Assembly: GCF_003967595.1 (NCBI RefSeq) | Contig: NZ_BIFW01000003.1 | Coordinates: 52,468-76,467 of the forward strand | Reading direction: 5' to 3' | Length of the DNA stretch: 24,000 bases | From: Companilactobacillus musae | GTDB lineage: Bacteria; Bacillota; Bacilli; Lactobacillales; Lactobacillaceae | Shown: one piece after another, positions 1,614-19,978 of the stretch | How positions within the stretch are numbered: position 1 is the stretch's first letter | Layout of the letters: every line of letters starts with the position of its first letter | The notes under the pieces: generated by a model | The model's database searches: none | The model's input: the letters and a program-made list of their open reading frames with translations, nothing else | What the model was told of the DNA's origin: nothing | Program-made: the position numbers and the translations under genes

Positions 1614-1651
1614 TGATTACACTCTCCCTATATACAAACCCAATTTAGTAC

Positions 1652-1715
1652 AAAAAAAGTCACGATCACTTATCCTCATAACCATTGGTAACAACGAAGA
1701 TTTGGTTTCATGACT
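1652..1715 (-). terminator. Long imperfect hairpin plus T7 run (minus strand) between eda and kdgK; possible terminator or attenuator
   Basis: On the minus strand AGTCATGA (1715-1708) pairs with TCGTGACT (1665-1658, one G-U pair) around a ~42-nt structured interior, followed by TTTTTTT (1658-1652). No convincing sigma-A promoter lies between it and the kdgK start, so its function is uncertain. Confidence 0.3.
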
Positions 1716-1733
1716 TAATTTCTATAAAGACAA

Positions 1734-3344: not shown

Positions 3345-3413
3345 TTTGTCCACCTTTTATAAATAAATAAAAAATCTCCCTGAAGATTTTGACTCCAAGA
3401 AGATTCCTTATAA

Positions 3414-4751
3414 TTACAATCCTTTCTTGATTTGTTTTCTATTCCAGAACATCATTCCGGCCACAATAATTGTAAGAATGGCTGCACCAATAATTGGTAG
3501 ATTTACAGTTCCTTCATATACTATCCATGCTAATGGACTAGCAGCAAAATCAATACTTGCGACTGATGAAGTTCCAGCAGGAATCAAGCTAGATTCAACG
3601 ATTCTTACAGCTTTAGTAAATATACCAGCTAAGGCAGTTGCTGAAAGAACACCTAATACCAAACTAACAATACCTACTAATAATGTCTTTAAAACATTTC
3701 CCTTAGTATATGGAAGTACTAATGGGAAGATATAAATTAATCCAGATAGACTGGCCAATGGTAGGAATTCGTTACCAGGAATAACAACAGATAGGAACAA
3801 GATAATAGGAATTAATAGTAAACTAGCAACCAATGTAACAGGATGTCCAATTACTAAAGCTGGAGTCATACCAATATTGAATTCTCTATCTTTAAATCTG
3901 TTCTTAATAATTTCTTGTGTACGTTTTGAAATTGGTGATAATCCTTCGATGAATAATCCAGTGATCTTAGGGATCAATACCATAACGGCGGCTAGAATAA
4001 CACCTAATTGTAAAATCTTGGCAACTGGATAATGTGCCAAAGCACCAATCAACATACCAATAATTACACCTAAAACAATTGGATCACCTAAAACACCGAA
4101 TTTCTCTTTCATTTTATCAGCATCGATATCTACCTTATTAAGTCCAGGAATACGATCTACAATCCAATTTACAATAACTGCAAATGGAATAAAGCTGACA
4201 CAAAACGCTTGCGGGATAGAAATTCCCTCTAGATCTTTACCATAAAATGCTTCAACCTTCTTTTGAGATCTATCTGCACCAACTAAAGTAACAATAATAG
4301 TTATAACAGCAGCGAATAATCCCCACCAGAAGTTCTTGGTAGCAAAGTAAACAATTGAACCAATAAAAGCAAAGTGCCAATAGTTCCAAAGGTCAATATT
4401 CAATGTCTTTGTAGTTCCAATAACTAACATCAAGACATTAACCAATAGACCTAATGGAATAATAATTGCACCTACTGATGTGGCAAAAGCAACTTGTGAA
4501 GCAGCAGGCCAACCAATATCCAATGTATATAAGTGTAGATGATAAGTTTTTACCATCGCATTAACAGCAGGTCCAATGTTATCTGATAACAATTGAGTAA
4601 CTACACTCAAACCGACAAATCCAACACCGACTTTAAGACCTGAAACTAATGATTTTCCCCAACCCATTCCGATAAGTAGACCAAGAATCAGAAAGATGAT
4701 TGGCATCATTACACTAGCACCTAAAGACATAATGTAATTTATTACAGCCAT
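3414..4751 (-). CDS. PTS galactitol-family EIIC (GatC-like) membrane permease; no cognate EIIA or EIIB in the window
   Basis: 445-aa polytopic ORF. Blocks recalled from E. coli GatC are conserved: DIGWPAAS (GatC DVGWPGSS), NIDLWNYWH (NVDIWNIWH), LEGISIPQ (LEGIAIPH), GMTPALVIGH (GLDPALLLGH), IPGNEFLP (VPGNQVLP). RBS AAGGGGGG. Confidence 0.8.
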   Translation of the reverse strand: MAVINYIMSLGASVMMPIIFLILGLLIGMGWGKSLVSGLKVGVGFVGLSVVTQLLSDNIGPAVNAMVKTYHLHLYTLDIGWPAASQVAFATSVGAIIIPLGLLVNVLMLVIGTTKTLNIDLWNYWHFAFIGSIVYFATKNFWWGLFAAVITIIVTLVGADRSQKKVEAFYGKDLEGISIPQAFCVSFIPFAVIVNWIVDRIPGLNKVDIDADKMKEKFGVLGDPIVLGVIIGMLIGALAHYPVAKILQLGVILAAVMVLIPKITGLFIEGLSPISKRTQEIIKNRFKDREFNIGMTPALVIGHPVTLVASLLLIPIILFLSVVIPGNEFLPLASLSGLIYIFPLVLPYTKGNVLKTLLVGIVSLVLGVLSATALAGIFTKAVRIVESSLIPAGTSSVASIDFAASPLAWIVYEGTVNLPIIGAAILTIIVAGMMFWNRKQIKKGL

Positions 4752-4789
4752 GTTTTACCCCCCTTAGAGCATCTATGACATTTATTGAA

Positions 4790-5617
4790 TTAACGTACTA
4801 AATATCCACCATCAACAGGAATAATTGCACCATTGATATAAGCAGCAGCATCACTTGCTAAGAATACTGCAGGTCCCATCAATTCATATGGTTCTGCCCA
4901 GTGACCCATAGGAATTCTTCCAAGAATTTCATCGTTACGTGACTTATCTGCACGAATTGGAGCAGTATTTTCAGTCTTAATGTATCCAGGTGCAATGGCA
5001 TTAACAGTAACGTTATAAGCACCCATTTCTGATGCAAATGCTTTTGTCAAACCAGCAACACCATGTTTTGAAGCTGTGTATGAAGGGATAAACTTACCAC
5101 CTTGGAATGAAAGCATTGAACCAATATTGATAATTCTTCCTGATTTTTGTTCAGCATATACTTTTGAAACTTCTAGTGATAAGTGATATACGGCGTTCAA
5201 GTTAATATTAATTACTCGATCCCAATCCTCATCTTTTGATTCCAAAATTGGATTACGTTTGATCATACCAGCATTATTTACCAAGATATCAATATGTCCA
5301 AATTTATCAATTGCAGTATCTACAACTTTTTTAGCAGCACCAGGAGCAGTCAAATCCAAATCCATAAATTCTACTTTTTGACCAAGACTTTCGATTAGTT
5401 CACGTGTGTTGTCCCATTCCTTTTTACCAAATGTAGGAATAAAAATATCAGCACCCGCTCTAGCCATAGCAATTGCATAACCTTGTCCTAAGCCCGTGTT
5501 TCCACCAGTAATGATAGCAACTTTACCTTTTAGACTAAACTTACTCATACCAAAATTATTTTTTAGTTCCTCTTCGTGTTGACGAATTTCTTCTGCTGTT
5601 TCATGAATTTCTGACAT
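4790..5617 (-). CDS. kduD: SDR-family 2-dehydro-3-deoxy-D-gluconate 5-dehydrogenase (KduD-like) with a 23-aa acidic N-terminal extension
   Basis: GKVAIITGGNTGLGQGYA cofactor loop, NNAG, and the S...YxxxK catalytic motif (YTASK). Strong RBS AGGAGGA lies 7 nt before the ATG at 5617. The internal ATG at 5548 has no RBS. Confidence 0.8.
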   Translation of the reverse strand: MSEIHETAEEIRQHEEELKNNFGMSKFSLKGKVAIITGGNTGLGQGYAIAMARAGADIFIPTFGKKEWDNTRELIESLGQKVEFMDLDLTAPGAAKKVVDTAIDKFGHIDILVNNAGMIKRNPILESKDEDWDRVININLNAVYHLSLEVSKVYAEQKSGRIINIGSMLSFQGGKFIPSYTASKHGVAGLTKAFASEMGAYNVTVNAIAPGYIKTENTAPIRADKSRNDEILGRIPMGHWAEPYELMGPAVFLASDAAAYINGAIIPVDGGYLVR

Positions 5618-5644
5618 TTCAGAATCCTCCTAAAAGTTTTTGCA

Positions 5645-5673
5645 TTTCTTAATAAGAAACCTCATTTCTTATT
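5645..5673. promoter_or_regulatory. TTTCTT/AAGAAA inverted-repeat array; candidate operator (IclR/KdgR-type) in the kduD leader
   Basis: TTTCTT(5645-5650)-AAT-AAGAAA(5654-5659)-CCTCA-TTTCTT(5665-5670). The larger 9-bp perfect inverted repeat is AATAAGAAA (5651-5659) / TTTCTTATT (5665-5673). It lies just downstream of the candidate kduD promoter. Confidence 0.35.
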
Positions 5674-5682
5674 TATGAATAA

Positions 5683-5711
5683 AGTGTAAATCATTATTTC
5701 TCCATTTGCAA
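5683..5711 (-). promoter_or_regulatory. Candidate sigma-A promoter of the kduD operon
   Basis: On the minus strand: TTGCAA (5711-5706), 17-bp spacer, TACACT (5688-5683). The -35 hexamer is itself palindromic. Confidence 0.4.
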
Positions 5712-5755
5712 GCCCTTTCATATTTTTTACTAATCTGATATAGTCCAATATTAGG

Positions 5756-5761
5756 TATAAT
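5756..5761 (+). promoter_or_regulatory. Candidate -10 box (TATAAT) for the IclR regulator gene
   Basis: Perfect TATAAT 23 nt upstream of the ATG at 5784, with RBS AGAGAGG between them. No good -35 at 17 bp. Confidence 0.3.
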
Positions 5762-5783
5762 GTAAGAAAAGAGAGGCATTATA

Positions 5784-6539
5784 ATGGCTGAAAAACATCT
5801 ATATGGCACCGTTTTGCTGAAGGCAAAGGAAATCTTAGACTTTATTTCCAATTCAAAAACTGCACCTGGGTTAAAAGAAATTAGTATGAATGTTGAAATT
5901 TCTAAACCCACTGTTCTTAAAATCTTACAAACTCTTGAATATTGTGGATTTGTAAGATCATATGGGACTATAAAGAAGTATTACTTAGGTACTATATTTT
6001 TGAAATATGGCGATCAAGTCGCTCAAGAATTTGATTTAGTTAAGATAGCGACCCCATTCTTAAATGATTTACGGGACAAAACTACAGAAGCAGTCAATCT
6101 TGGCATCGTTGAAGATGATAAAGTAGTACTTTTAGCCAGAGCTAAAAGTACTAATAGTATTCATTTTGATTTGGAATTGGGTGGTGCTATGGATATGTAC
6201 TCTTCTGCAATGGGAAAGGCCATTCTGGCACATTATCCAGATGATAAATTAATTGACTATCTTAATAAAACACCTCTTAAACCTAAGACCCCAAATACTA
6301 TTGTTACTCGTGAAGATTTTCTGAATAATATTACTGAAATAAAAAAAGATGGTTACGCCATCGATGATATTGAAAATCAGGAAGGCGTCTATTGTATTGG
6401 ATTTCCACTGATCAAGGGAAATCAAATCTTTGGTGGATTTAGCATTAGTGCTCCTGTATTTAGAATTGACGATAAGAAACGTCAAGAATGGATTGAATAT
6501 GGTTTACAAACTGAAAGAAAAATTTTGAGTAATTTTTAG
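5784..6539 (+). CDS. IclR-family transcriptional regulator (KdgR-like), divergent from the kduD operon
   Basis: 251 aa. N-terminal winged-helix region (LKEISMNVEISKPTVLKILQTLEYCGFV) followed by an IclR effector-binding domain (GKAILA, GVYCIGFP). Position and orientation match KDG-regulon repressors. Confidence 0.85.
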   Translation: MAEKHLYGTVLLKAKEILDFISNSKTAPGLKEISMNVEISKPTVLKILQTLEYCGFVRSYGTIKKYYLGTIFLKYGDQVAQEFDLVKIATPFLNDLRDKTTEAVNLGIVEDDKVVLLARAKSTNSIHFDLELGGAMDMYSSAMGKAILAHYPDDKLIDYLNKTPLKPKTPNTIVTREDFLNNITEIKKDGYAIDDIENQEGVYCIGFPLIKGNQIFGGFSISAPVFRIDDKKRQEWIEYGLQTERKILSNF

Positions 6540-6634: not shown

Positions 6635-7372
6635 TTATCCCAATACCTTTTTAACAATTTCATACAACTTCTTAACATCCTCTGGTCTAGTTAAGCCGTC
6701 ATCACCAATGATTGAACTATATACATGAGGAATAATCTTCTTAACTCCGGCATCAACCGCAATTTGTAGAATTTCTTCAAAGTTATCTAAGTCAATTCCA
6801 CCAGTTGGTTCCAAATTAAAGTCATATTTAGCACAAGCTTCAGCTACGGCTTTGAACTCTACCTCATGTTTCAAACCACCCATTGGGAAGAATTTAATTG
6901 CTGTTCCACCCATATCTTTTAATAAGGCAATGGCTGTTTCAATTGGAACTTCAGCAGCAGGTTGTTGACTGCTTAAAGGACCTGTAGCAATATTTACCAA
7001 GCCTACTTTTCCGGTTGGTGAAACTAATCCATTAATAACTGTTTCATCTTCACCTAACAAAGCACGTGATGTTCCAACACCTGTAAATACTTGATTGACA
7101 TGTTGTGGTTTCAAAACTTTTGATACGCGGCTAACCATTTGACTTTGCTTGGGATCACCAGCGCCTAAACCAACTGAAATAGCATTTTCAACTTCTGCTT
7201 GATACTTCTTCATATCTTCAATGGCAGCTTCGTCTGTATCATAATTTTTTGTCAAAACTCCGACTACTGTGTGACCTTCAGCTGCGGCATAAATATCTTT
7301 AGCATTCTCCACAGAACCTGCAAGTACATTAATAGCAACTCTATCTTTATAATAATTAGGAATTAGTTTCAT
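6635..7372 (-). CDS. KDGP-aldolase family protein (former DUF1341); not homologous to Eda
   Basis: 245 aa. I recognise the blocks NVLAGS..NA..IY.AAEGH..VGVL.KNY, VGLGAGDP.QS.MV, PQHVNQVFTG, FPMGGLKH and EPTGGIDL.N as this family. It is the last gene of the operon. Confidence 0.7.
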   Translation of the reverse strand: MKLIPNYYKDRVAINVLAGSVENAKDIYAAAEGHTVVGVLTKNYDTDEAAIEDMKKYQAEVENAISVGLGAGDPKQSQMVSRVSKVLKPQHVNQVFTGVGTSRALLGEDETVINGLVSPTGKVGLVNIATGPLSSQQPAAEVPIETAIALLKDMGGTAIKFFPMGGLKHEVEFKAVAEACAKYDFNLEPTGGIDLDNFEEILQIAVDAGVKKIIPHVYSSIIGDDGLTRPEDVKKLYEIVKKVLG

Positions 7373-7387
7373 CTTTATATAAGCTCC

Positions 7388-8494
7388 TTAGTCCTTTTGA
7401 ATTTCTTGTAATCTATTTACAATTGCTTTCATTTCATTCGCATCAACTGCACGAATGTCAAATTCAATAATACCTTCGTTTGCTCTGTATTCACGTGTAT
7501 AAATAGCAGGATCGCCTTGCTTTAATTCTTTAGTTACTTCTTTAGCGTCTTTCTTAGAAGTTTCTTTAACGGTCACGGCTGCACGATAAATTTCACGACC
7601 TGCACCATCTTGAACTTCCTTAGCCTCAATATCAGGAACCTCATTTAAATCTTTTAAGAATGGTGCTAATCTTTGACGCATATGTTCACCATCTTCTGGT
7701 CCAATCTTGAGATAGCGTTCAATTGCCGCAGTTAAACCTAAGATATTTTCCTTACCGATCTTCATGGCACGGCCAATACCTTTCTTTTGTAGACGAATCC
7801 AATTAATATACTTAGCTTTACCATAAACTAAGCCTGATGCTGGTCCTTCTAGTGCTTTGGCACCACTAAAGATAATAATATCTACGCCTAGATCCAAATA
7901 TTTCTTCATATCTTCTTCTGCAGCAGCATCAAGAATCAATGGCAAATTATTTTTATGAGCTACTTCTACAGCTTCTTTGACGGATAGCATACTCTTTTGA
8001 ACTGTGTGGTGACTCTTTACATAAAGTACTGCTGCTGTTTTATCAGTTATCATCATTTCAATATGTTCTGGGGTACACATATTAGCATAGCCAGCTTCGA
8101 CAACATGTCCTCCACCAAGACTAATCATTACTTCTTCTGGAGTACCATAGTCGACATTGTGACCTTTAGGCATAATGATTTCACGTTTTTCAAAACGTGG
8201 ATCATTTGCATGATAAACATGATACATACTCCCCTGACCAATTAGAGCTGCAACAGACATTGCAATACCAGCTGAAGCCGAATTTACGACGATTGCATCT
8301 TCTGCACCCAATAATTTTGCTAAATGTTTTCCAGTTTGAACGTCCAAATCTGCCATTTCAAAGAAATGTGTATCACCAAATTGTTGAGCATCAATAACAT
8401 CTTCAGGCACTTGTGAAACACCCAAAATTGTCATCTTACCACTAGCATTAATAACCTTCTTTAATCCATATTCACTGTAAATATCTTCAGCCAA
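7388..8494 (-). CDS. DgaE/SelA-like pyridoxal-phosphate-dependent ammonia-lyase (D-glucosaminate-6-phosphate ammonia-lyase family)
   Basis: GLKKVINASGKMTILGVS N-terminal block and the PLP-lysine motif FSGAKALEGP. The track start at 8530 is a TTG inside the upstream gene. The TTG at 8494 sits 1 nt after that gene's TAA and 8 nt after GGAGG, giving MAEDIYSEYGLKKV. An alternative ATG lies at 8521. Confidence 0.75.
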   Translation of the reverse strand: MAEDIYSEYGLKKVINASGKMTILGVSQVPEDVIDAQQFGDTHFFEMADLDVQTGKHLAKLLGAEDAIVVNSASAGIAMSVAALIGQGSMYHVYHANDPRFEKREIIMPKGHNVDYGTPEEVMISLGGGHVVEAGYANMCTPEHIEMMITDKTAAVLYVKSHHTVQKSMLSVKEAVEVAHKNNLPLILDAAAEEDMKKYLDLGVDIIIFSGAKALEGPASGLVYGKAKYINWIRLQKKGIGRAMKIGKENILGLTAAIERYLKIGPEDGEHMRQRLAPFLKDLNEVPDIEAKEVQDGAGREIYRAAVTVKETSKKDAKEVTKELKQGDPAIYTREYRANEGIIEFDIRAVDANEMKAIVNRLQEIQKD

Positions 8495-8495
8495 T

Positions 8496-9608
8496 TTACT
8501 TTCCTCCAATTGAATATTCATTACCGGCAATAACCGAATAAATAGGTTTGATTAGCGTATCTGTCTTTCTTTGATTTCCATTTGAATCCGTTAAGACTTT
8601 TTCACCTTTTTCAACATTGAAAATTGTTAGATCTCCATCGTATCCTAAACGTAGAGAACCTTTGCTTTGTAAGTTGAAATTATCAACTGGAGCCCAAGTT
8701 ACCATTCTAATTACTTCTGGTAGTGAGTAGCCAATCAACAACATCTTTTCCAAAGTCGTTGCCATATCATAAACGGGACCATTGGCCCTATTTCTATGAT
8801 AAATATCGGTACTTACTGACTTAGGAATCAAGCCTTCATCACGTGCAATTTCTCCAGTTCTGAAGTTAAAACTGTCTGTTCCATGGCCAACATCAAAAAT
8901 CACACCACGATCATAAGCATCGAGTACGAAGTCCTTAATATGACCAGTCTTATCTAACATTCCATTAGGTTTTCCATTATAGGCATGTGTTAAGATATCG
9001 TCTCTAGACATTGAGTTTAAGACATCTTTTAATTCTGGGGGATTAGCTCCAACGTGAACCATAATTGGTAAATTAAGTTGTGCCTGAAATCTTTTAGCTT
9101 CCAATAGTGGTTTAACATCGTTATCAACAACTACTGAATGACTCTCTCTTACCTTAATACCAACAATGAAATCTTGTAATTCCTTCACTGCATCATAAAG
9201 AGGAGCTTTTTGAATTCTAGTAATATCGCCTAACTCATCCTGAGCCAAAATACCAGTCTTAGAAATATTAATCATTGCTAAAACATTAGTTTTCTTATCA
9301 CGAGTAATCTTATAAAAATCGCGAATATTGTCTGCACCAGTTGAACCAGCATCAATAACCGTTGTTACCCCAGTTAAATAACCATCTTTATCGGGATCAT
9401 CATAATAGAGACTTAGCTTTTCATAAGAATGTACATGATCATCAATCCATCCTGGAGTTACATATGATTCATGATGTAAATCAATCGTCTTTTTAGCAGT
9501 TATTCCCTCTAATTTTTCTCCGACTGCCGTAATTTTTCCATTTGTAATTGCAATTTCAATTGGTTGATTACGTTCTGTTTTACCATTCTTGATATATAAA
9601 TCTTCCAT
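8496..9608 (-). CDS. Amidohydrolase-superfamily metallo-hydrolase (deacetylase/deacylase-like)
   Basis: 370 aa. N-terminal beta-sandwich (IKNGK...ITAVG), HxH metal motif (WIDDHVHS), and later MVHVG, HAYNG and FDVGHG metal/substrate blocks typical of the amidohydrolase TIM-barrel superfamily. Confidence 0.8.
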   Translation of the reverse strand: MEDLYIKNGKTERNQPIEIAITNGKITAVGEKLEGITAKKTIDLHHESYVTPGWIDDHVHSYEKLSLYYDDPDKDGYLTGVTTVIDAGSTGADNIRDFYKITRDKKTNVLAMINISKTGILAQDELGDITRIQKAPLYDAVKELQDFIVGIKVRESHSVVVDNDVKPLLEAKRFQAQLNLPIMVHVGANPPELKDVLNSMSRDDILTHAYNGKPNGMLDKTGHIKDFVLDAYDRGVIFDVGHGTDSFNFRTGEIARDEGLIPKSVSTDIYHRNRANGPVYDMATTLEKMLLIGYSLPEVIRMVTWAPVDNFNLQSKGSLRLGYDGDLTIFNVEKGEKVLTDSNGNQRKTDTLIKPIYSVIAGNEYSIGGK

Positions 9609-9660: not shown

Positions 9661-10323
9661 TTAAACTGCAATTGGGAAGAAGAAGCCGAAAAGCATTGCA
9701 CCTAAGATTGCACCACCTGGCAATGGTTTCTTCCAAGCATAGAATATAGCAGCTCCGGCAGTTGCACCGATACCAATTGGAATTGATGCTGAAATGGCAC
9801 TCAAGATGATCAATGGTCCTAAGAAACGACCAGTTTCATTACCAGCACCCATCATAACGTCAGCTCCAAAAGTTGCATTTGACTGTCCAACCGTATACTT
9901 ACGAACAAAGAAAATTATCAAACCGATAATAATTCCAATCACTAATCCTGTAAGTAAAGCTAGTGGAAAGTTTTTAACAGGGGCAGTTAGTCCCATACTT
10001 AACATAATTGCTGGAATACCAATTCCAACACCAGTTAAAATCGAACCACCTAAATCCAAGATACCTACAAGTGAACCTTCCAAAACACGAGCAAATAAGA
10101 AACTTGCACCAAATGCTGCGGCAGGTCCAAATGACTTACCAGTTAATCCAGCCTTCAACATGGCTACAATAGCAACTTCATTAAAGGCACCCACTCCATA
10201 ATTTACATACATTGATGTTCCGGCAAAAACACCCATGGACATTAATCCGACAATAATAGGAAATGACCAATCTGCGTACCAGAAACTTTTTGCATGTTCT
10301 AGATCTTTCAAATCATCTTGCAT
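9661..10323 (-). CDS. Glycine-rich polytopic membrane protein, DUF4310-like
   Basis: 220 aa, almost entirely hydrophobic and Gly/Ala-rich segments (about 6 predicted by eye). RBS AAAGGAGGAA. The family name is from memory of this conserved gene neighbourhood. Confidence 0.65.
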   Translation of the reverse strand: MQDDLKDLEHAKSFWYADWSFPIIVGLMSMGVFAGTSMYVNYGVGAFNEVAIVAMLKAGLTGKSFGPAAAFGASFLFARVLEGSLVGILDLGGSILTGVGIGIPAIMLSMGLTAPVKNFPLALLTGLVIGIIIGLIIFFVRKYTVGQSNATFGADVMMGAGNETGRFLGPLIILSAISASIPIGIGATAGAAIFYAWKKPLPGGAILGAMLFGFFFPIAV

Positions 10324-10342
10324 GAGTTATTTCCTCCTTTAA

Positions 10343-11122
10343 TTATTTTGGTGTCACTACTGAATGCATATTGTTCAACCATGTTGGAATTCCGACTTTA
10401 AACGCCTTCAACATGTTGATATCGAATCCTCTGAAGAAACCACTCAAAACAAACAATGCTATTGTGGCGATAAGAATGATTCTTGTAATTCTCGTCCAAC
10501 CTAATTCATCGACACCTTTACCAACTAAAATTCCTAAAACAACACCAGGAACTGCATTGCCCATTATTAAAGCGGCTACACCGCCAAATACTGTTCCAAA
10601 CAATCCAGAACGACGACCAGCATCAATGGCAGCTAACCAGAAAAGAATAGGCATAACCATATTGATCAATGTATCTGCGGCTGGAACCAAAACTTTAACC
10701 GCTGTAACTTGTAACGATGCGGGAATTGATGCTGAAGTTACATTTAAAAACGGAACCAAGACTGCACCAATAATTCCACTAACAATACCCATCTTTTTAG
10801 GATTGTGGACTGTTTCCGCAACGTTTTTATTTTTTAATAAAAGAATACTTGCCGCCCAGTTTGGAATAACACGATGAGTTATATCCTGTGTAAAAGCACC
10901 AGCACCAACTGTTGATGCCCATGCATTGAAGAAGAAACCTAATCCAAATGAAAAGTGAGAAGCTGGATCGCCTTCTGCGGCATTCATTTCTCCAAGCGTT
11001 CTAAATGCACCTAGAGCTTGAACTGTTGGTGCATTGAACATACGAGCAGCACCAACACCGGCAGCAAATCCAACAGCAAGTCCAACAATTATGGACTCAA
11101 TTAAGATTGTTAATATTTGCAT
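10343..11122 (-). CDS. Polytopic membrane protein, DUF4311-like
   Basis: 259 aa with multiple hydrophobic segments. Its ATG overlaps the stop of the upstream gene (TAATG at 11120-11124), implying translational coupling. Confidence 0.65.
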   Translation of the reverse strand: MQILTILIESIIVGLAVGFAAGVGAARMFNAPTVQALGAFRTLGEMNAAEGDPASHFSFGLGFFFNAWASTVGAGAFTQDITHRVIPNWAASILLLKNKNVAETVHNPKKMGIVSGIIGAVLVPFLNVTSASIPASLQVTAVKVLVPAADTLINMVMPILFWLAAIDAGRRSGLFGTVFGGVAALIMGNAVPGVVLGILVGKGVDELGWTRITRIILIATIALFVLSGFFRGFDINMLKAFKVGIPTWLNNMHSVVTPK

Positions 11123-11493
11123 TATTTATCGCCCCTTAATAATTTCGTGAAATCAGGTATATTTATATGATCTGGTGACGGTATTTCATTATCAATAAAA
11201 TTAATATCAGACAATTTAACAGCATTTAATTCAACATCTACATCCAGAGTTAATTTGTAATTAACTCTGGTTCTCTTAAAGAAGAAGAACAGAAACTTTT
11301 CTTGATAAGAGACTCTTTCTGCATAAAGTACTCTGACTTCCTTAGGAATTATTTGTAAGGTTACTTGAGATTCATCTTTAATAACTTCATTACGAATATT
11401 ATTTAAAGCACTGGCAAACGCACGCTGCCTAGTTTCGCCATCACCAGAGACACGAACTGTTTTCACAAATTTTTTATTCAACTCTGAACTCAT
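11122..11493 (-). CDS. Small soluble protein, DUF4312-like
   Basis: I call the start at the ATG at 11493 (MSSELNKKF...), which lies 8 nt after GGAGGG. The 146-aa track ORF begins inside the upstream gene. No transmembrane segment, and alternating beta-type sequence. Confidence 0.6.
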   Translation of the reverse strand: MSSELNKKFVKTVRVSGDGETRQRAFASALNNIRNEVIKDESQVTLQIIPKEVRVLYAERVSYQEKFLFFFFKRTRVNYKLTLDVDVELNAVKLSDINFIDNEIPSPDHINIPDFTKLLRGDK

Positions 11494-11524
11494 TTCTTTC
11501 ACCCTCCAAATTAAAGCTCTATCT

Positions 11525-11887
11525 TTATGCCTTGTCAGGATATTGTTTTGCAAAAGTTTCAAGTAACTTCTTGCCTAATTCTTCCTTATCCATAAATCCA
11601 AATCCAAGAACTGTTTTTCCTTCTTGAATAGCTGTGATGCCTTCTTGAATTGATCTCATACCATGTCTTTCAGGATATCCATATTGTGTATTAGCGGTAA
11701 TAGCACCTGCACCGCCTGAACCACAGAATGAAATTCCCATATCGGCATTCTCATCATGCATAACTTTTCCTAGACGCATATCGGCTCCCATTCCTGGAAC
11801 AACAATTGCTTGCCCACCTGCATCTTCAATTCCTTTAGCAACTTTTTGGCCTTTACCCATTCTGTCTGCAATAACAACTTTAATCAT
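11525..11887 (-). CDS. Glycine-rich SFCGS-motif protein (DUF2620 / E. coli YhfU-like)
   Basis: 120 aa, with MIKVVIAD... at the N-terminus and GISFCGSGGAGAITANTQ in the middle. RBS AGGAGGA. Confidence 0.7.
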   Translation of the reverse strand: MIKVVIADRMGKGQKVAKGIEDAGGQAIVVPGMGADMRLGKVMHDENADMGISFCGSGGAGAITANTQYGYPERHGMRSIQEGITAIQEGKTVLGFGFMDKEELGKKLLETFAKQYPDKA

Positions 11888-11899
11888 AATAAATTCCTC

Positions 11900-12244
11900 C
11901 TAATTATTTTCTATAGCATTTTCAAAATGTATTGATAAAACAAATGGTTCTGATGGTGCTAAATTTCCGATTTTATTAGTAATATCTTTAGCAATGTTTA
12001 ACGCCGTATCAGACACTCCGCTGAATAATGATTCATCAACTGGATCTAATGATTGATTATCTTTTGATCTCATTACCATCTCTCCTAAGTGATTTGCCAA
12101 TACAGTCAATTGGAGATCAGTTAGATTCAAGTGATTCGTCGTGAGTTCTTTCATTGCAAATTTAAAAATACTGTATGTTTCATCCGGATATTTTGATTCT
12201 TTAATAATTTTGGCTATCTCGGGAATATCCCATTTATTTTGCAT
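11900..12244 (-). CDS. Stand-alone PRD-domain protein (E. coli YhfY-like)
   Basis: I call the start at the ATG at 12244 (MQNKWDIPE...), preceded by AGGAGGGG at 8 nt. It overlaps the regulator's 3' end by 11 nt. Two PRD-type histidine contexts: LANHLGEMVMRS and LSIHFENA. Confidence 0.7.
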   Translation of the reverse strand: MQNKWDIPEIAKIIKESKYPDETYSIFKFAMKELTTNHLNLTDLQLTVLANHLGEMVMRSKDNQSLDPVDESLFSGVSDTALNIAKDITNKIGNLAPSEPFVLSIHFENAIENN

Positions 12245-14105
12245 CAACTTGACCCCTCCTAGTATCAGATAAATGTACATATTCTAATATTGCGTTTATT
12301 TCTGATTCATTAATATCTAATCCATACTGATTAAATGTTTCCTTTAATTGCTTCTTGATCACTTGATTCGATGCTTGAATATTGTTTGTATCTTTATATT
12401 GTTCATTGAATTTAATTCGATGTATTGCCATAAATATATGAAGCATTAAAGCATCTTTATATTCATCAGAAACCTTATATTTCAATAAATTCATAACATC
12501 CTCATAAATCGAAAACATTGTCATTATCATTTCTCGGGATAACTTTTTAAATGAAGCATTGTTTTCAATTTTTGTTATCGAAGAATCAGGTTCCTTTTTT
12601 AAAGTATCAGGATTAACTTTTAAGATATTCGCTACCTTATTTTTTATTTGCTCAATATCTTGGCTAGTAGGTAATGGACTAACTTGAATTAACGGTGCAT
12701 TCAGATCAGTTAAGTCGAAGATACTAATTACCAAATCCGGTTTAAGTTTGTTTATTTGCTTTTTTGCGGCAATGAGTGAAGTAAAACCAGCAATTTCAAT
12801 GTTCGGAATATTTTCTTCTATTTTTTGTTGTATCAGATTAGTAACACCTAAACCTGTTGAACAAACATAAACAACTCTCACTTTTCTTTGATTGTTATGA
12901 ATCCTTTGCTCTGAAACCATAAAATGCAAAGCTAAAAATGAAACGAAGGAATCATTTACTATTGTTGGACTTGAAGAAACCTCTTTGATACAAACCTTAT
13001 ACAAAGCATTGAATAAACCTGGATAATTTGTCTTGATATCTTTTACAAACGGATTATATTCATTGGTAAATTGATATTTGCTATTAAATTTGCTCATTAA
13101 GTGCGATAACAAACTATCGAATAATTGCTTATCTTCACTGAATGGCTGGTTAACTTCCTCGCTAACTTCATTGATAATCAACTTTGTTAGAGTTACCAAA
13201 TTATCATCTTGAGGAATCGTTTGACCACCGTTTATAACATATTGATATTCGTCTTGATACAATGGAAAATCATATTCATCAAACATTCGTTTAAAGAGCT
13301 GAAAATCAAAAGTATCAAGCTTAACATCATTAAAATTTATCTCTTGGTAACTGTTAATCGGTTTATTAATACTTAACCTAGCAATAGAGATAGCTAATCG
13401 ACAAGAAATAGTTAATATATCGTTATAATCTAATTCTGAATTATCTTTATCAATTAGCCTGCTAGCATGTGTCAAAACTCTTTTTAGGATATATTCAAAT
13501 TCATTATTGAGACCTAGCAATAATCCAGTAACCTCATTAGAATTTAATTGCAATAAGTGAATAACCGAGTATATATCAAATTTTGAGATCACATCTTGTA
13601 TTGAAGATTCCATATATGATCTAATTGAGATTTCGCTACCAGTTAAGGTATATCCATAAAAATCTTTATGCTTTAGATGTAAATCAAATGTCCGCAAATT
13701 TTCTTTTATTTTGTCCAAATCATTCAACATCGTACTTTCACTGACATTTAATTTATTTTGAAGCTGTTGTAAAGTAACAGTCTGGTCTGTCAATGAAAGT
13801 AAAAATACTATTTGTAGTATTCTTTTTTGTGGAGCTGGATAATACTCAAATCCCGTTTGACCAATTAATTGTTTCCTAATTTCTTGTCTCACAGTTAACT
13901 CATTTTTTAACCAAATGCCAACGTGAGGTTTAGTTTGAAAAACTTGATTATCTTCTTTAAACCATTCTTTCAAATCTTTTAAATCATATTTAATTGTTCT
14001 AACACTTACACCATATATATCCGAAAGCCTTTGAATAGTAATTGGATCATCCCGATTCAACAATAGATAGACTATTTTGATTTCCCTATCTGTTAATTGC
14101 ACCAT
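12234..14105 (-). CDS. PRD- and EIIB-domain transcriptional regulator (MtlR/LicR/ManR-like; usually auto-annotated as a BglG-family antiterminator)
   Basis: 623 aa. It has two N-terminal HTH/Mga-like modules (aa ~1-160) and PRD-like regions containing LLSHLMS and LALHFMVSEQR. An EIIB(Gat)-like module follows with VRVVYVCSTGLGVTN (Cys415, codon 12861-12863). The ~100-aa C-terminal region carries LMLHIFMAIHRIKFNEQ. RBS GGAGG. Confidence 0.8.
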   Translation of the reverse strand: MVQLTDREIKIVYLLLNRDDPITIQRLSDIYGVSVRTIKYDLKDLKEWFKEDNQVFQTKPHVGIWLKNELTVRQEIRKQLIGQTGFEYYPAPQKRILQIVFLLSLTDQTVTLQQLQNKLNVSESTMLNDLDKIKENLRTFDLHLKHKDFYGYTLTGSEISIRSYMESSIQDVISKFDIYSVIHLLQLNSNEVTGLLLGLNNEFEYILKRVLTHASRLIDKDNSELDYNDILTISCRLAISIARLSINKPINSYQEINFNDVKLDTFDFQLFKRMFDEYDFPLYQDEYQYVINGGQTIPQDDNLVTLTKLIINEVSEEVNQPFSEDKQLFDSLLSHLMSKFNSKYQFTNEYNPFVKDIKTNYPGLFNALYKVCIKEVSSSPTIVNDSFVSFLALHFMVSEQRIHNNQRKVRVVYVCSTGLGVTNLIQQKIEENIPNIEIAGFTSLIAAKKQINKLKPDLVISIFDLTDLNAPLIQVSPLPTSQDIEQIKNKVANILKVNPDTLKKEPDSSITKIENNASFKKLSREMIMTMFSIYEDVMNLLKYKVSDEYKDALMLHIFMAIHRIKFNEQYKDTNNIQASNQVIKKQLKETFNQYGLDINESEINAILEYVHLSDTRRGQVDAK

Positions 14106-14475: not shown

Positions 14476-15423
14476 TCAATCCAATTTAAAAGAATGATCA
14501 GTAAGCGTAAATCTGTTTTTTATATTATCCGTTAAACGAATCGTTCTATCTTTGTAAACAAAAATCAAACCTATAGAATCATTATCTAATAATTCCAAAG
14601 TACCTTCATAATCATTATAAAATCCTAAGCTAGACCAAATCTCGCCATCGATTGATCTCGGACTTACAACCGTGACACCCACTAAATCAGTTTTTACTGG
14701 ATATCCCGTCTTAGGGTCCATAATGTGATGGTAACTGTGACCTTTCTTATTTAAAAATCTTTCATAAATACCAGAGGTCACAATTGAATAATCTTGTGTT
14801 TTTAAGACTCCTAAATAATCATCTCTTGTATCAAAGGGCGACTGAACGCCTACGTTCCAAAAGCCACTCTCATGCGTGCTCTGGCCTACCAGAAGAACGT
14901 TTCCCCCTAGGTCAATAATTCCTTGATCGACTCCGGTTTCCAGCCATAGTTCCTTGATTGCATCAGCAATATATCCCTTGGCTATTCCACCTAAATCAAG
15001 CTCCATTCCTTCATCTAATAAGTAAACTGACCGATCTTTATCATTTAACATAATACGTCCAGGATTAGTCAATTTTAAACGATGAGCAATTTGCTTATCA
15101 CTCGGAACTTCCGCATCGGAAAATCCTATGTGCCAAAGTTTTACTAAGGGTCCAATAGCTGCGTTAAAGCCATGATTTTCTTGACTAACCCGTACCGCTT
15201 CCTTAACTAGATCATAACTAATCTTAGAAACAGGCACTGCATACTTTCCAGAAGCATGATTGATCGACATAATTTCTGACTCTGTCCGATTGACGGTCAA
15301 TAAGTCTTCACAGTATTGAACCAATTCATAGGCTTTATCAAGAGCTGGTACTTGCCCTTCTTGAAAAACAGTCAATTTAATCTCTGTACCTAATGCATGA
15401 TAGACCTTAGTAAAATTCGACAT
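14476..15423 (-). CDS. apbE: FAD:protein FMN transferase (ApbE family) without signal peptide or lipobox
   Basis: 315 aa. ApbE blocks ALGTEIKLTV, DLGGIAKGY, TSG.YER and HHIMDPKTGYP. The N-terminus MSNFTKVYHALGT has no hydrophobic leader and no Cys. Confidence 0.85.
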   Translation of the reverse strand: MSNFTKVYHALGTEIKLTVFQEGQVPALDKAYELVQYCEDLLTVNRTESEIMSINHASGKYAVPVSKISYDLVKEAVRVSQENHGFNAAIGPLVKLWHIGFSDAEVPSDKQIAHRLKLTNPGRIMLNDKDRSVYLLDEGMELDLGGIAKGYIADAIKELWLETGVDQGIIDLGGNVLLVGQSTHESGFWNVGVQSPFDTRDDYLGVLKTQDYSIVTSGIYERFLNKKGHSYHHIMDPKTGYPVKTDLVGVTVVSPRSIDGEIWSSLGFYNDYEGTLELLDNDSIGLIFVYKDRTIRLTDNIKNRFTLTDHSFKLD

Positions 15424-18933: not shown

Positions 18934-19869
18934 TTAAGCTAATTCAATTTTTTTGTTAAGAACTTCTTGTGCTTCATCCATTAATTTCTTGACGATTTCT
19001 CCAGCTGGTAATGATTCTTTGATTAGGCCTGAAACTTGTCCACTAAATACCAAGCCATCTTCAACGTCATCTTTTTGAACGGCGTTTCTCAAGCCTTCAT
19101 TCATAACTGAATTGAATTCATCACGTGATACTTGATCTAATTCAAGTTCTGTCAATTTGTTAGCAATGTTGTTCTTGATAATACGTGAAGCATCTTTGAT
19201 TGTGGCACCAGCAACAACTGTTGATGTATCAGTAGCATCAATAACTAATTTTCTCCAGTTATCTCCAACAGGACTTTCTTTAGCAATTGAGAAGATTGTT
19301 CCACATTGAACACCCTTAGCACCAGCAACAAAGGCATTTACAACACCACGTCCATCACCAATACCACCAGCAGCGATAAGTGGAATTGAAACTGCATCAG
19401 CAATTTGTGGCCAGAGAGTTTGTGAAGTCAAGACACCAATGTGACCTCCACCTTCCATACCTTCGGCAATAACGGCATCAGCACCCATTTCTTCCATCTT
19501 CTTAGCGATTTTAACGTTAGGAATAACAGGACATACCTTAATTCCAGCGGCTTTCAAATCTTTCATATATGGCTTTGGTGTACCAGCACCAGTTGTGACA
19601 ACTTTAACGCCTTCATCGATAACGACCTTAACAACTTCTGGTGTGTTAGGATCCATCAACATCAAGTTAACGGCGAATGTATTATTAGTTAATTTCTTAG
19701 CCTTTTGAATTTCTGCTCTTACTTGTTCAGGTGTTTTACCACCAGCAGCGATAATACCAAGGCCCCCACCATTTGATACGGCAGCTGCTAGATCAGCAGT
19801 AGCAACTTCTTGCATAGCTCCTTGTACAACTGGGTATTTGATTCCTAAAAGTTTACATACTTCATTCAT
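18934..19869 (-). CDS. FMN-dependent NAD(P)H oxidoreductase, nitronate monooxygenase / FabK-like
   Basis: MNEVCKLLGIKYPVVQGAM..., GGLGII, EGMEGGGHIG and AAGGIGDGRG blocks. I call the start at the ATG at 19869, 8 nt after GGAGGA. The 26-codon upstream extension in the track has no RBS and runs into an inverted repeat. Confidence 0.8.
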   Translation of the reverse strand: MNEVCKLLGIKYPVVQGAMQEVATADLAAAVSNGGGLGIIAAGGKTPEQVRAEIQKAKKLTNNTFAVNLMLMDPNTPEVVKVVIDEGVKVVTTGAGTPKPYMKDLKAAGIKVCPVIPNVKIAKKMEEMGADAVIAEGMEGGGHIGVLTSQTLWPQIADAVSIPLIAAGGIGDGRGVVNAFVAGAKGVQCGTIFSIAKESPVGDNWRKLVIDATDTSTVVAGATIKDASRIIKNNIANKLTELELDQVSRDEFNSVMNEGLRNAVQKDDVEDGLVFSGQVSGLIKESLPAGEIVKKLMDEAQEVLNKKIELA

Positions 19870-19932
19870 TTTTAACATCCTCCAATAGAAAATTAAGTGA
19901 TAACCAAATCCATAAATGAAATTCATAGTTTT

Positions 19933-19978
19933 AAAATCAATTTTCATTTTCCTAGGCTAAATATTGAAAATTGATTTT
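19933..19978. promoter_or_regulatory. 14-bp perfect inverted repeat upstream of the FabK/NMO-like gene
   Basis: AAAATCAATTTTCA (19933-19946) and TGAAAATTGATTTT (19965-19978) separated by 18 nt, 64-110 nt upstream of the ATG. It could be an operator or a leader RNA hairpin. Confidence 0.4.

What the first reader, a model, noticed from the sequence alone, without database searches (positions are those of the whole stretch)
11525..11887. The SFCGS loop resembles the catalytic Cys loop of RpiB/LacAB sugar-phosphate isomerases, suggesting an enzyme or Cys-phosphocarrier
Seen in sequence: the motif is ...DMGISFCGSGGAGAITANTQ... Established (recalled E. coli RpiB sequence): ...GGILICGTGVGISIAANK..., where the Cys is the catalytic base. 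Aligned on the Cys, the pattern C-G-[ST]-G-x-G-x-x-I-x-A-N is shared. The N-terminal beta-strand start (MIKVVIAD versus MKKIAFGCD) is also similar in type. Inference gives two competing roles. It could be a sugar-phosphate isomerase-like enzyme acting between uptake and DgaE. It could instead be a Cys-phosphorylated EIIB-like carrier, since EIIB proteins of several PTS families also use a Cys in a Rossmann-like fold. Either role would be new for this family.
Basis: partly seen in the sequence, partly recalled or inferred. Interest (0 to 1): 0.7.

Follow-up and report, generated by a model that had tools for sequence, protein, structure and literature searches.

The report
RpiB-fold cysteine protein of unknown transporter
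This small, highly conserved protein has the fold and key cysteine of a sugar-phosphate isomerase, but it always sits beside two unknown membrane proteins in an operon under phosphotransferase-type control, so it may be the phosphate-carrying part of a new kind of sugar-acid uptake system.

Summary
The ORF at 11525-11887 (minus strand, 120 aa) is a real gene. It belongs to the uncharacterised family PF14272/TIGR03577 ("SFCGS"), and the window matches Companilactobacillus musae. An AlphaFold model (pLDDT 93.9) has RpiB/LacAB isomerases as its 45 best PDB matches and no PTS EIIB in the top 50. Profile alignments put Cys55 on RpiB Cys66 and Ser57 on Thr68. Cys55 is invariant in all homologues examined.

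It is not an ordinary RpiB. The ring-opening His/Asn and the C-terminal phosphate-binding helix are missing, and the Pfam RpiB score is below threshold.

Across 80 genomes the gene keeps one context: PRD protein, SFCGS, DUF4312, then the membrane proteins DUF4311 and DUF4310. It stays with these when the catabolic genes (amidohydrolase, DgaE-like lyase, KDGP aldolase) move or are absent. The operon has PRD-type regulators in two phyla. Fifty of 68 clusters have no kinase and no MupG-like 6-phospho-glycosidase within about 9-10 kb, and 53 of the 68 have no kinase.

Best reading (about 0.4): an EIIB-like Cys phosphocarrier of RpiB fold in a new PTS-like uptake module. Main rival (about 0.25): a true isomerase. 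Nothing is shown biochemically.

The parts
11525..11887 (-). SFCGS-family gene (120 aa), RpiB/LacAB-like fold
   Evidence: ORF. PF14272 E 5e-59. TIGR03577 203 bits against a cut-off of 141. AF2 pLDDT 93.9 with a (beta-alpha)x5 architecture. Foldseek top 45 hits are RpiB/LacAB.
11684..11743 (-). Cys loop, residues 49-68 (DMGISFCGSGGAGAITANTQ). The Cys55 codon is at 11723-11725, between strand 3 and helix 3.
   Evidence: S53-A62 is invariant in 30 and 78 homologues. Cys55 aligns to RpiB Cys66 and Ser57 to Thr68.
11900..12280 (-). Stand-alone PRD-domain protein (EF_0829 family). The true start is probably the ATG at 12244.
   Evidence: TIGR03582 95 bits against a cut-off of 69. Two invariant His, H64 and H118. 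Found directly upstream of SFCGS in 72/80 loci.
11122..11493 (-). DUF4312 protein (EF_0831 family). The likely start is the ATG at 11493, behind the RBS GGAGGGTG; the listed ORF begins at an upstream TTG (11562).
   Evidence: PF14189 E 3e-27. Sequence read. Lies between SFCGS and DUF4311 in 74/77 loci. No invariant His or Cys.
10343..11122 (-). DUF4311 polytopic membrane protein (EF_0832 family)
   Evidence: PF14188 E 1e-105. Follows SFCGS in 77/77 loci. Its start overlaps the DUF4312 stop by 1 nt.
9661..10323 (-). DUF4310 polytopic membrane protein (EF_0833 family)
   Evidence: PF14187 E 5e-96. Found in 77/77 loci.
8496..9608 (-). EF_0837-type amidohydrolase/deacetylase
   Evidence: TIGR03583 508 bits against a cut-off of 432.
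7388..8530 (-). DgaE-family PLP ammonia-lyase (SelA-related)
   Evidence: TIGR01437 552 bits. Below the cut-off of the D-glucosaminate-6-P lyase equivalog (385 against 600).
6635..7372 (-). KDGP aldolase (DgaF type)
   Evidence: PF07071 E 1e-105.
12234..14105 (-). PRD-containing transcriptional regulator: HTH_11, Mga, PRD, PRD, a weak EIIB-like segment ('VVYVCSTGLG'), then a third PRD
   Evidence: Pfam. A PRD regulator lies in the flanks of 64/68 loci. The proteobacterial version carries a PTS_EIIA_2 domain, E 8e-17.

Best explanation
The gene encodes a small cytoplasmic protein with the RpiB/LacAB alpha/beta fold. It keeps the nucleophile or base Cys (C55), the Ser two residues later, and the Gly-rich backbone-amide 'anion hole' at the N-terminus of helix 3. 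It has lost the parts of RpiB that open the sugar ring and bind the sugar phosphate. It is an obligate partner of two unknown polytopic membrane proteins (DUF4311, DUF4310), of DUF4312, and of a two-His PRD protein. I propose that this five-gene module is a PTS-like group-translocating uptake system for an (N-acyl) amino-sugar acid. In this model SFCGS is the EIIB-like component. Cys55 would accept a phosphoryl group from the PTS chain, through HPr and possibly the PRD protein or another donor, and pass it to the substrate held by DUF4311/DUF4310. The 6-phospho product would then feed the amidohydrolase, the DgaE-like lyase and the KDGP aldolase. The phosphorylation state of SFCGS would be read by the PRD protein and the PRD regulator, which would make the operon inducible. 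Shown here: the fold, the Cys conservation, the gene linkage and the regulator domains. Inferred: phosphorylation of Cys55, the phosphoryl donor, the transport role of DUF4311/4310, and the substrate.
Against: No known EIIB has this fold. No EIIB appears in the top 50 structural hits or in sequence comparisons. No EIIA-like donor is evident: DUF4312 has no invariant His or Cys. The membrane partners could not be linked to any EIIC family, because the model was poor and gave no hits. A non-phosphorylating route for the likely substrate class is known, GlcNAc1A to GlcN1A to KDG, with KdgK acting last (PMC9537276). KdgK-like genes lie near several clusters, including this window, so uptake without phosphorylation is possible. 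The lyase scores below the DgaE equivalog cut-off, so a 6-phospho substrate is not assured. The kinase/MupG association is not corrected for phylogeny. The Streptomyces locus is full of frameshifts and is a single case. The retained Asp/Cys/Ser set is also what an isomerase would keep.
Confidence: 0.4

Rival explanations
1. It is a genuine, minimal RpiB/LacAB-type enzyme. Cys55 would act as a general base and Ser57 as a proton shuttle, isomerising (or epimerising) the imported sugar or sugar phosphate through an enediolate. The enzyme might be docked on the transporter or complemented by DUF4312, as LacA complements LacB.
For: The fold is RpiB/LacAB. Cys55/Ser57 align with Cys66/Thr68, and an invariant Asp8 sits at the end of strand 1 where RpiB has Asp9. 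New invariant basic residues (R9, K12, R78) lie on the same face and could bind an anionic substrate. RpiB-fold isomerases do work in sugar-acid pathways; DhuI (4u8f) is among the hits. In LacAB the active site is split between two subunits (PMC11585597).
Against: His10, His99/Asn100, Arg110 and the C-terminal helix with Arg133/His134/Arg137 are absent or replaced; the protein ends about 30 residues early (residue roles from PMC4783025). The Pfam LacAB_rpiB score is 12.5 bits against a cut-off of 24.7. The known routes from amino-sugar acids to KDPG need no aldose-ketose isomerase (PMC9529869, PMC9537276). The gene segregates with the membrane genes, not the enzyme genes, and persists where the enzymes are absent. 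This reading does not explain the PRD protein or the PRD regulators.
Confidence: 0.25
2. It is a non-phosphotransfer accessory or regulatory subunit of an ordinary ion-coupled transporter or membrane enzyme formed by DUF4311/DUF4310. It might gate or sense substrate on the cytoplasmic side and signal to the PRD proteins. Phosphorylation would occur later, by a KdgK encoded elsewhere.
For: Linkage to and co-conservation with the membrane proteins are strict. A non-phosphorylating GlcNAc1A pathway is known (PMC9537276). KdgK and Eda genes lie near the cluster in this window and in L035, L044 and L064. No EIIA-like donor and no EIIC-like fold were found.
Against: An invariant Cys-Gly-Ser-Gly-Gly-Ala-Gly-Ala loop, with conserved residues on all five strand-end loops, looks like a catalytic site rather than a scaffold. 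PRD regulators have no known input other than phosphorylation. The cluster carries its own KDGP aldolase but usually no kinase.
Confidence: 0.2
3. The similarity to RpiB is a chance match of a short Gly-rich motif on a generic Rossmann-like fold. The loop would instead be a GxGxxG-type nucleotide-binding motif or have no special role.
For: G56-S-G58-G-A-G61 fits GxGxxG. Sequence-level statistics against RpiB are weak (E 1.1 in PDB hmmsearch; hhalign probability 36-47%). The next structural hits are B12-binding domains.
Against: All 45 best structural hits are one family, and the aligned Cys falls at the same topological site, after strand 3 and before helix 3. The motif is on strand 3/helix 3, not on the first beta-alpha-beta unit of a dinucleotide fold. 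CG[ST]G is rare in background proteins.
Confidence: 0.03

Closest known systems
RpiB/LacAB sugar-phosphate isomerases (PF02502; E. coli RpiB 1nn4/2vvr, LacAB 4lfk, DhuI 4u8f)
   Same: Five-stranded alpha/beta fold. A Cys directly after strand 3, followed by G-[ST]-G and a helix N-terminus. An Asp at the end of strand 1. The VLGFG/VLAFG strand 5.
   Different: The protein is about 30 residues shorter. It lacks the C-terminal helix with Arg133/His134/Arg137, and also His10, His99/Asn100 and Arg110. It scores below the Pfam threshold. It is always encoded with membrane proteins and PRD proteins rather than as a soluble pathway enzyme.
Cys-phosphorylated PTS EIIB proteins (Lac/Chb, Gat, Asc types; e.g. 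E. coli ChbB)
   Same: A small cytoplasmic alpha/beta protein with one invariant Cys at a strand-loop-helix junction. It is encoded with membrane permease genes under PRD-type control, upstream of enzymes whose characterised relatives use 6-phospho sugars.
   Different: No detectable sequence or fold match. The Cys follows strand 3, not strand 1. There is no canonical EIIA or EIIC partner. Phosphorylation is untested.
Salmonella D-glucosaminate system DgaABCDEF (mannose-family PTS plus DgaE lyase plus DgaF aldolase)
   Same: A DgaE-family lyase and a KDGP aldolase follow four uptake-type genes, two small soluble and two membrane.
   Different: The four uptake genes are unrelated to EIIA/B/C/D of the mannose family. 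An extra amidohydrolase is present. Regulation is by PRD proteins. The lyase scores below the DgaE equivalog cut-off.
E. coli yhfS-yhfZ cluster (YhfU = DUF2620, YhfT membrane protein, YhfY PRD protein, YhfS DgaE-like)
   Same: The same logic: a roughly 117-aa protein with an invariant Cys-x-Thr-Gly loop, a polytopic membrane protein, a stand-alone PRD protein, a SelA/DgaE-like PLP enzyme, and no kinase.
   Different: Homology of YhfU to SFCGS is only hinted at (Pfam E 0.068; hhalign E 0.14). YhfT shows no significant similarity to DUF4311/4310. The accompanying enzymes differ. This cluster is also uncharacterised.
Marine GlcNAc1A (oxidised chitin) pathway OngB/OngC/KdgK (PMC9537276)
   Same: The order deacetylase, then deaminase, then KDG(-P), then aldolase is a plausible substrate class for this operon.
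   Different: The enzyme families differ. Phosphorylation there occurs only at KDG, by KdgK. The transporter is a conventional one, and there are no PRD or SFCGS proteins.

Membership tests
Gly_rich_SFCGS (PF14272 / TIGR03577 EF_0830) | Score above the curated HMM cut-offs | tested here: met
   PF14272 197.7 bits against 27.3. TIGR03577 203.4 against 141.1.
Gly_rich_SFCGS (PF14272 / TIGR03577 EF_0830) | SFCGS motif, and the conserved neighbourhood EF_0829-EF_0833 | tested here: met
   The motif is at residues 53-57. The neighbours match TIGR03582/03578/03580/03579. The same gene order is seen in 80 genomes.
RpiB/LacAB isomerases (PF02502) | RpiB/LacAB three-dimensional fold | tested here: met
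   The Foldseek top 45 PDB hits are all from this family, E 1.6e-5 to 2e-3, TMq 0.58-0.72, using a pLDDT 93.9 model.
RpiB/LacAB isomerases (PF02502) | Score above the Pfam gathering threshold | tested here: not met
   12.5 bits (E 0.14) against a cut-off of 24.7, and only residues 40-67 align.
RpiB/LacAB isomerases (PF02502) | Catalytic base Cys66 and proton-shuttle Thr68 (E. coli numbering; PMC4783025) | tested here: met
   C55 and S57 align to C66 and T68. Both are invariant.
RpiB/LacAB isomerases (PF02502) | Asp9 at the end of strand 1 | tested here: inconclusive
   An invariant D8 sits at the end of strand 1, but the N-terminal alignment is low-confidence and off by one residue (global mode).
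RpiB/LacAB isomerases (PF02502) | Ring-opening His99/Asn100 and the phosphate-binding residues His10, Arg110, Arg133, His134, Arg137 | tested here: not met
   The aligned positions are E89/G90, R9 and F98/M99. The protein ends at residue 120, where the alignment reaches RpiB ~126-130, so the helix carrying Arg133/Arg137 is absent.
RpiB/LacAB isomerases (PF02502) | Aldose-ketose isomerase activity | not testable with these tools
   This needs enzyme assays.
PTS EIIB (Cys-type: Lac/Chb, Gat, Asc, Glc, Gut) | Sequence membership in an EIIB family | tested here: not met
   No EIIB Pfam family scores at E<=10. hhalign against ChbB gives E 0.2 and against the SrlE EIIB part E 0.7.
PTS EIIB (Cys-type: Lac/Chb, Gat, Asc, Glc, Gut) | A known EIIB fold | tested here: not met
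PTS EIIB (Cys-type: Lac/Chb, Gat, Asc, Glc, Gut) | Invariant phosphorylatable Cys at a strand-loop-helix junction | tested here: met
   C55 lies between strand 3 (residues 50-53) and helix 3 (59-69) and is invariant.
PTS EIIB (Cys-type: Lac/Chb, Gat, Asc, Glc, Gut) | Encoded with a cognate EIIC and EIIA and under PTS-type regulation | tested here: inconclusive
   PRD regulators and a PRD protein are present. The membrane partners are of unknown family, and no EIIA is present except as a domain of the proteobacterial regulator.
PTS EIIB (Cys-type: Lac/Chb, Gat, Asc, Glc, Gut) | PEP/EI/HPr-dependent phosphorylation on Cys and transfer to the sugar | not testable with these tools
   This needs biochemistry.
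DUF2620 (PF10941, E. coli YhfU) | Score above the Pfam threshold, or significant profile-profile similarity | tested here: not met
   Pfam gives 13.8 bits (E 0.068) against a cut-off of 25, although the match is nearly full-length. hhalign of A1 against A3 gives E 0.14 with the Cys loops aligned.

The most novel reading that the evidence does not exclude
SFCGS, the two-His PRD protein, DUF4312, DUF4311 and DUF4310 form a previously unrecognised family of PTS-type group translocators. Its EIIB is an RpiB-fold protein phosphorylated on Cys55, an isomerase active site re-used as a phosphoryl carrier. The E. coli YhfU/YhfT/YhfY set would be a second family of the same design.
Probability: 0.35. 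Interest if true: 0.85.

Novelty: new variant of a known kind. Interest (0 to 1): 0.62.

Why it matters
The set of recognised PTS permease families, and of EIIB folds, has been stable for a long time. An RpiB-fold Cys carrier coupled to two unknown membrane proteins would add a new permease family. It would also show an isomerase active site recruited for phosphoryl transfer. The module occurs in more than 500 of about 186,000 species-representative genomes, including enterococci, lactobacilli, Listeria, Pantoea, Sodalis and Aeromonas, and it sits on a composite transposon in an outbreak E. faecium strain (PMC11934601). It would assign roles to five 'DUF'-type families at once and give a lead on the long-unexplained E. 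coli yhfS-Z operon. It may also point to how gut and plant-associated bacteria use oxidised amino sugars such as N-acetyl-glucosaminate. If the protein turns out to be a plain isomerase, it is still the first functional clue for this family. The hypothesis is directly testable with a PEP/EI/HPr phosphorylation assay and a C55S mutant.

Tried and rejected

2. The structure of the membrane partner DUF4311 was modelled poorly (pLDDT 67.7), and Foldseek gave nothing (best E 0.64). The transporter fold remains unassigned.

3. I tested whether the module is a diverged glucitol-family PTS. hhalign of SFCGS, DUF4312, DUF4311 and DUF4310 against E. coli SrlE, SrlB and SrlA gave no signal. SFCGS against ChbB gave E 0.2.

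4. DUF4311 against DUF4310 (paralogy) and both against YhfT were not significant.

5. DUF4312 as an EIIA analogue is rejected for now, because it has no invariant His or Cys.

6. SFCGS-DUF4312 'fusion' proteins in the representative search turned out to be frameshift artefacts, so they were not used as evidence.

7. HPr-like ORFs next to the cluster in Sodalis, Acerihabitans and Enterobacillus are NPr of the rpoN operon, so the adjacency is coincidental. ptsHI next to the cluster in E. ratti (L034) is a single case.

8. The exhaustive representative search (1.8 billion proteins) found only 74 clusters, mostly fragments, and no bridge to other families.

9. Literature searches for SFCGS, DUF4310-12, EF0829-33, yhfU/yhfT and DUF2620 found no functional work. 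Miller et al. 2013 and Zhang et al. 2003 are not held.

10. GxGxxG dinucleotide binding was considered and judged unlikely, because the motif sits on the wrong beta-alpha unit and the structural neighbours are RpiB.

Full report
**Observation.** The window has an ATG-initiated ORF at 11525..11887 on the minus strand that encodes 120 aa. The quoted text is present. MIKVVIAD is at the N-terminus, and DMGISFCGSGGAGAITANTQ spans residues 49-68 (nt 11684-11743; Cys55 codon 11723-11725). The protein is a full-length member of Pfam PF14272 'Gly_rich_SFCGS' (E 5e-59) and NCBIfam TIGR03577 'EF_0830/AHA_3911' (203 bits against a cut-off of 141). It is 100% identical to a Companilactobacillus musae protein. 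At the sixth position SFCGS has Ala (…C-G-S-G-G-A-G-A…) where RpiB has Gly (…C-G-T-G-V-G-I-S…). The Ile and Asn further on are also variable within the family.

**Is the resemblance real?**
- The family profile searched against all PDB sequences finds only T. maritima RpiB. The hit is aligned exactly on the Cys loop, but at a non-significant E=1.1.
- hhalign against E. coli RpiB, or a three-sequence RpiB alignment, gives E 2-4e-4 and probability 36-47% over residues 40-115. It maps C55 to C66, S57 to T68, and VLGFGF to VLAFGS.
- Pfam LacAB_rpiB scores 12.5 bits, below its 24.7 cut-off.
- The decisive result is structural. An AlphaFold2 model built from 30 homologues is confident (pLDDT 93.9, pTM 0.88) and has a (beta-alpha)x5 architecture, with Cys55 between strand 3 and helix 3.
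- Foldseek of that model against the PDB returns RpiB, LacA/LacB and the RpiB-like isomerase DhuI as all 45 best hits (E 1.6e-5 to 2e-3, TMq about 0.6-0.72). B12-binding domains come next at E about 1e-2. No PTS EIIB is in the 50 listed.
- C-G-[ST]-G occurs once in about 1,500 unrelated genes of the fetched loci.

The RpiB/LacAB relationship is therefore real at fold level and weak at sequence level.

**Conservation.** The family is unusually tight. An exhaustive HMMER scan of 1.8 billion representatives finds only 74 clusters at 50% identity, mostly fragments. Cys55 and the whole S-F-C-G-S-G-G-A-G-A stretch are invariant in 30 and 78 sequences. The most divergent full-length members (48% identity) read S-Q-C-G-S. 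Other invariant residues are D8 R9 G11 K12 G13, P31 G32 A35 D36 M37, M77 R78 S79 (G76 is also invariant in the 30-sequence set), and G95 F96 G97 F98 D100. All of them lie in the loops at the C-terminal ends of the five strands, which gives one large conserved face around the Cys.

**Is it an RpiB?** According to PMC4783025, RpiB uses Cys66 as base, Thr68 as proton shuttle, and the backbone NH groups of residues 67-71 as an anion hole. It uses His99 for ring opening, and His10, Arg133 and Arg137 (plus Arg110) for the phosphate. SFCGS keeps the Cys, the Ser/Thr, the Gly-rich loop and probably the strand-1 Asp. It has E89/G90 in place of His99/Asn100 and R9 in place of His10. It ends at residue 120, before the helix that carries Arg133/His134/Arg137. 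It is an RpiB-fold protein but fails several defining features of the isomerase family.

**Context.** On the minus strand the operon reads as follows:
1. PRD regulator (12234-14105)
2. Stand-alone PRD protein (11900-12280)
3. SFCGS (11525-11887)
4. DUF4312 (11122-11493)
5. DUF4311 (10343-11122)
6. DUF4310 (9661-10323)
7. EF_0837-type amidohydrolase (8496-9608)
8. DgaE-family PLP lyase (7388-8530)
9. KDGP aldolase (6635-7372)

I fetched 80 of more than 505 related loci from species-representative genomes and mapped orthologues.
- DUF4311 and DUF4310 follow SFCGS in 77/77 loci, and DUF4312 lies between them in 74/77.
- The PRD protein precedes SFCGS in 72/80 loci.
- The three enzymes are within 9-10 kb in 66/68 loci, and a PRD regulator in 64/68.
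- The enzyme block can be moved upstream (L059, L061, L063, L064, L066) or be absent (L017, L031, L046), while PRD-SFCGS-DUF4312-DUF4311-DUF4310 stays intact.
- Even the most divergent members keep this context.
- Mean identity of Proteobacteria to this Firmicute is 71% for SFCGS, 66% for DUF4311, 64% for DUF4310 and 66% for the aldolase. It is 51% for the lyase, 45% for the amidohydrolase, 36% for DUF4312, 32% for PRD and 24% for the regulator.

SFCGS thus belongs, genetically and in evolutionary rate, with the membrane proteins and not with the soluble pathway enzymes.

**PTS signals.**
- The regulator here has HTH_11, Mga, PRD, PRD, a weak EIIB-like segment ('VVYVCSTGLG', PTS_IIB E 0.13) and a third PRD.
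- The proteobacterial regulator, only about 24% identical, has HTH, Mga, two PRD domains and a PTS_EIIA_2 domain (E 8e-17 and 3e-16).
- The stand-alone PRD protein has both canonical His invariant, H64 and H118.
- By established knowledge of BglG/LicT/MtlR-type regulators, PRD regulators carry no small-molecule sensor. They read the phosphorylation state of a cognate PTS component.
- Yet most clusters encode no canonical EII.
- The characterised DgaE acts on D-glucosaminate-6-phosphate (PMC9529869), and the aldolase is the KDGP type, so a phosphorylation step is needed somewhere.
- In 68 loci with full flanks, a PfkB (KdgK-like) kinase is present in 15. In 12 of those it co-occurs with a MupG-like 6-phospho-glycosidase, all 12 also carrying an orphan Lac/Chb-type EIIC. 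Three loci have the kinase only, three have MupG only, and 50 have neither (Fisher p 2e-8, not corrected for phylogeny).
- A reading that fits is as follows. The add-on branch imports a disaccharide and releases an unphosphorylated sugar acid, which then needs a kinase. The core module delivers an already phosphorylated monomer.
- A Streptomyces cluster carries an HPr-like gene (GLHARPAA; E 1e-13 to E. coli HPr) between the lyase and the aldolase. That locus is riddled with frameshifts and is a single case.

**A second system of the same design.** E. coli yhfS-yhfZ encodes YhfU (DUF2620, 117 aa; 'IGACNTGAGAAL'), the membrane protein YhfT, the PRD protein YhfY and the DgaE-like YhfS, with no kinase annotated among its genes. 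The C-N-T-G-A-G loop is invariant in 25 DUF2620 proteins. Homology to SFCGS is only hinted at: Pfam E 0.068 over nearly the full length, and hhalign E 0.14 with the Cys loops aligned. DUF2620 against RpiB gives E 0.012 at the loop, and RpiB-like entries appear in the noise zone.

**Interpretation.** I commit, at about 0.4, to the following model. SFCGS is the cytoplasmic, EIIB-like Cys phosphocarrier of a new PTS-like uptake module. The RpiB anion hole would be re-used to cradle a phospho-cysteine, and the large conserved face would dock on DUF4311/DUF4310 and on PRD or HPr-type partners.

Arguments against this model are:
- The fold is unprecedented for an EIIB.
- No EIIA-like donor is evident, because DUF4312 has no invariant His or Cys.
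- The membrane partners could not be assigned to any fold.
- A known non-phosphorylating route exists for N-acetyl-glucosaminate: OngB, then OngC, then KDG, then KdgK (PMC9537276).
- KdgK and Eda genes lie near several clusters, including this window.
- The lyase scores below the DgaE equivalog cut-off.

The main rival, at about 0.25, is a minimal RpiB-type enzyme, perhaps complemented by another subunit as LacA complements LacB (PMC11585597). A third possibility, at about 0.2, is a non-phosphotransfer accessory subunit of an ordinary transporter. A chance resemblance is very unlikely (about 0.03).

**Novelty.** No functional literature on the SFCGS, DUF4310, DUF4311, DUF4312 or DUF2620 families was found. 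The only mention is as annotated ORFs on an E. faecium composite transposon (PMC11934601). The family is catalogued, so the gene is not new. What is new is the combination: an RpiB fold, a truncated active site, strict coupling to unknown membrane proteins, and PRD control. That combination is best called a new variant of a known kind, either an isomerase-fold protein or a PTS-like system. It would be a substantial finding if the phosphocarrier role is confirmed.

Noticed in passing
L026:12477-15195 (and L002, L013, L019, L025-L029, L032, L033, L035, L049, L059, L061): About 14 clusters, mostly enterococci, insert three genes between DUF4310 and the amidohydrolase. These are an orphan Lac/Chb-type PTS EIIC (PF02378) with no EIIA or EIIB, an 88-aa hydrophobic protein, and a MupG-like 6-phospho-glycosidase. 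Most also add a KdgK-like PfkB kinase after the aldolase. This pattern would fit uptake of a disaccharide such as chitobionic acid (GlcNAc-GlcNAc1A), but that substrate is my speculation.
   Followed up: partly
window 597-6539: Downstream of the operon lies a separate sugar-acid cluster. It has an IclR regulator (5784-6539, +), an SDR (4790-5617), an orphan EIIC-GAT/SgaT-like permease with no EIIA or EIIB (3414-4751), a PfkB kinase (2388-3353), a KDPG/KHG aldolase (1734-2387) and a second KDG-kinase-like PfkB (597-1613). KdgK and Eda homologues also sit next to the SFCGS cluster in L035, L044 and L064.
   Followed up: partly
L001:7936-15345 (E. coli K-12 yhfS-yhfZ): The uncharacterised yhf operon has the same design: the Cys-loop protein YhfU, the membrane protein YhfT, the PRD protein YhfY and the DgaE-like YhfS. 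It also carries a phosphotriesterase-like hydrolase, a phosphomutase-like protein and an Alr-like PLP protein, and no kinase is annotated among its genes. The YhfU Cys is invariant in 25 homologues.
   Followed up: partly
L085:6200-12800 (Streptomyces sp. M19, GCA_038070365.1): This is an actinobacterial version of the cluster with an IclR regulator instead of a PRD regulator, an Eda-type aldolase, and an HPr-like gene (11315-11677) inside the cluster. Nearly every gene is split by frameshifts, so this is either a poor assembly or a decaying locus.
   Followed up: partly
window 11122-11562 and 11900-12280: The mechanical ORF starts are probably too far upstream. DUF4312 most likely starts at the ATG at 11493, behind GGAGGGTG, which leaves a 31-nt gap after the SFCGS stop. 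The PRD protein probably starts at the ATG at 12244. The DUF4312 stop and the DUF4311 start overlap by one base (11122), which suggests translational coupling.
   Followed up: partly
window 12234-14105: The regulator has an unusual architecture. It has three PRD-like domains and a Cys-containing EIIB(Gat/Lac)-like segment ('RKVRVVYVCSTGLGVT') but no EIIA domain. The proteobacterial counterpart has two PRD domains plus a PTS_EIIA_2 domain. The two are only about 24% identical, so PRD regulators may have been recruited to the cluster independently.
   Followed up: partly
L089:4685-5479: In one divergent metagenomic cluster a HAD/Cof-type sugar-phosphate phosphatase follows the KDGP aldolase, and no amidohydrolase is present.
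   Followed up: no
L034:5501-7494 (Enterococcus ratti): The general PTS genes ptsH and ptsI lie immediately upstream of the cluster's regulator on the same strand. This is a single case and is probably coincidence.
   Followed up: no
window 9661-11122: DUF4311 and DUF4310 are extremely conserved, with about 100 invariant positions each, many of them Gly and charged residues. They share short look-alike motifs (GAFRTLGE and GAFNEV), but profile comparison shows no significant paralogy (E 0.28). DUF4311 also gave no match to any solved membrane-protein fold.
   Followed up: partly
window 14476-15423 and 18934-19947: Upstream neighbours on the minus strand include an ApbE-family flavin transferase and an NMO/IMPDH-like oxidoreductase. 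They appear unrelated to the operon.
   Followed up: no
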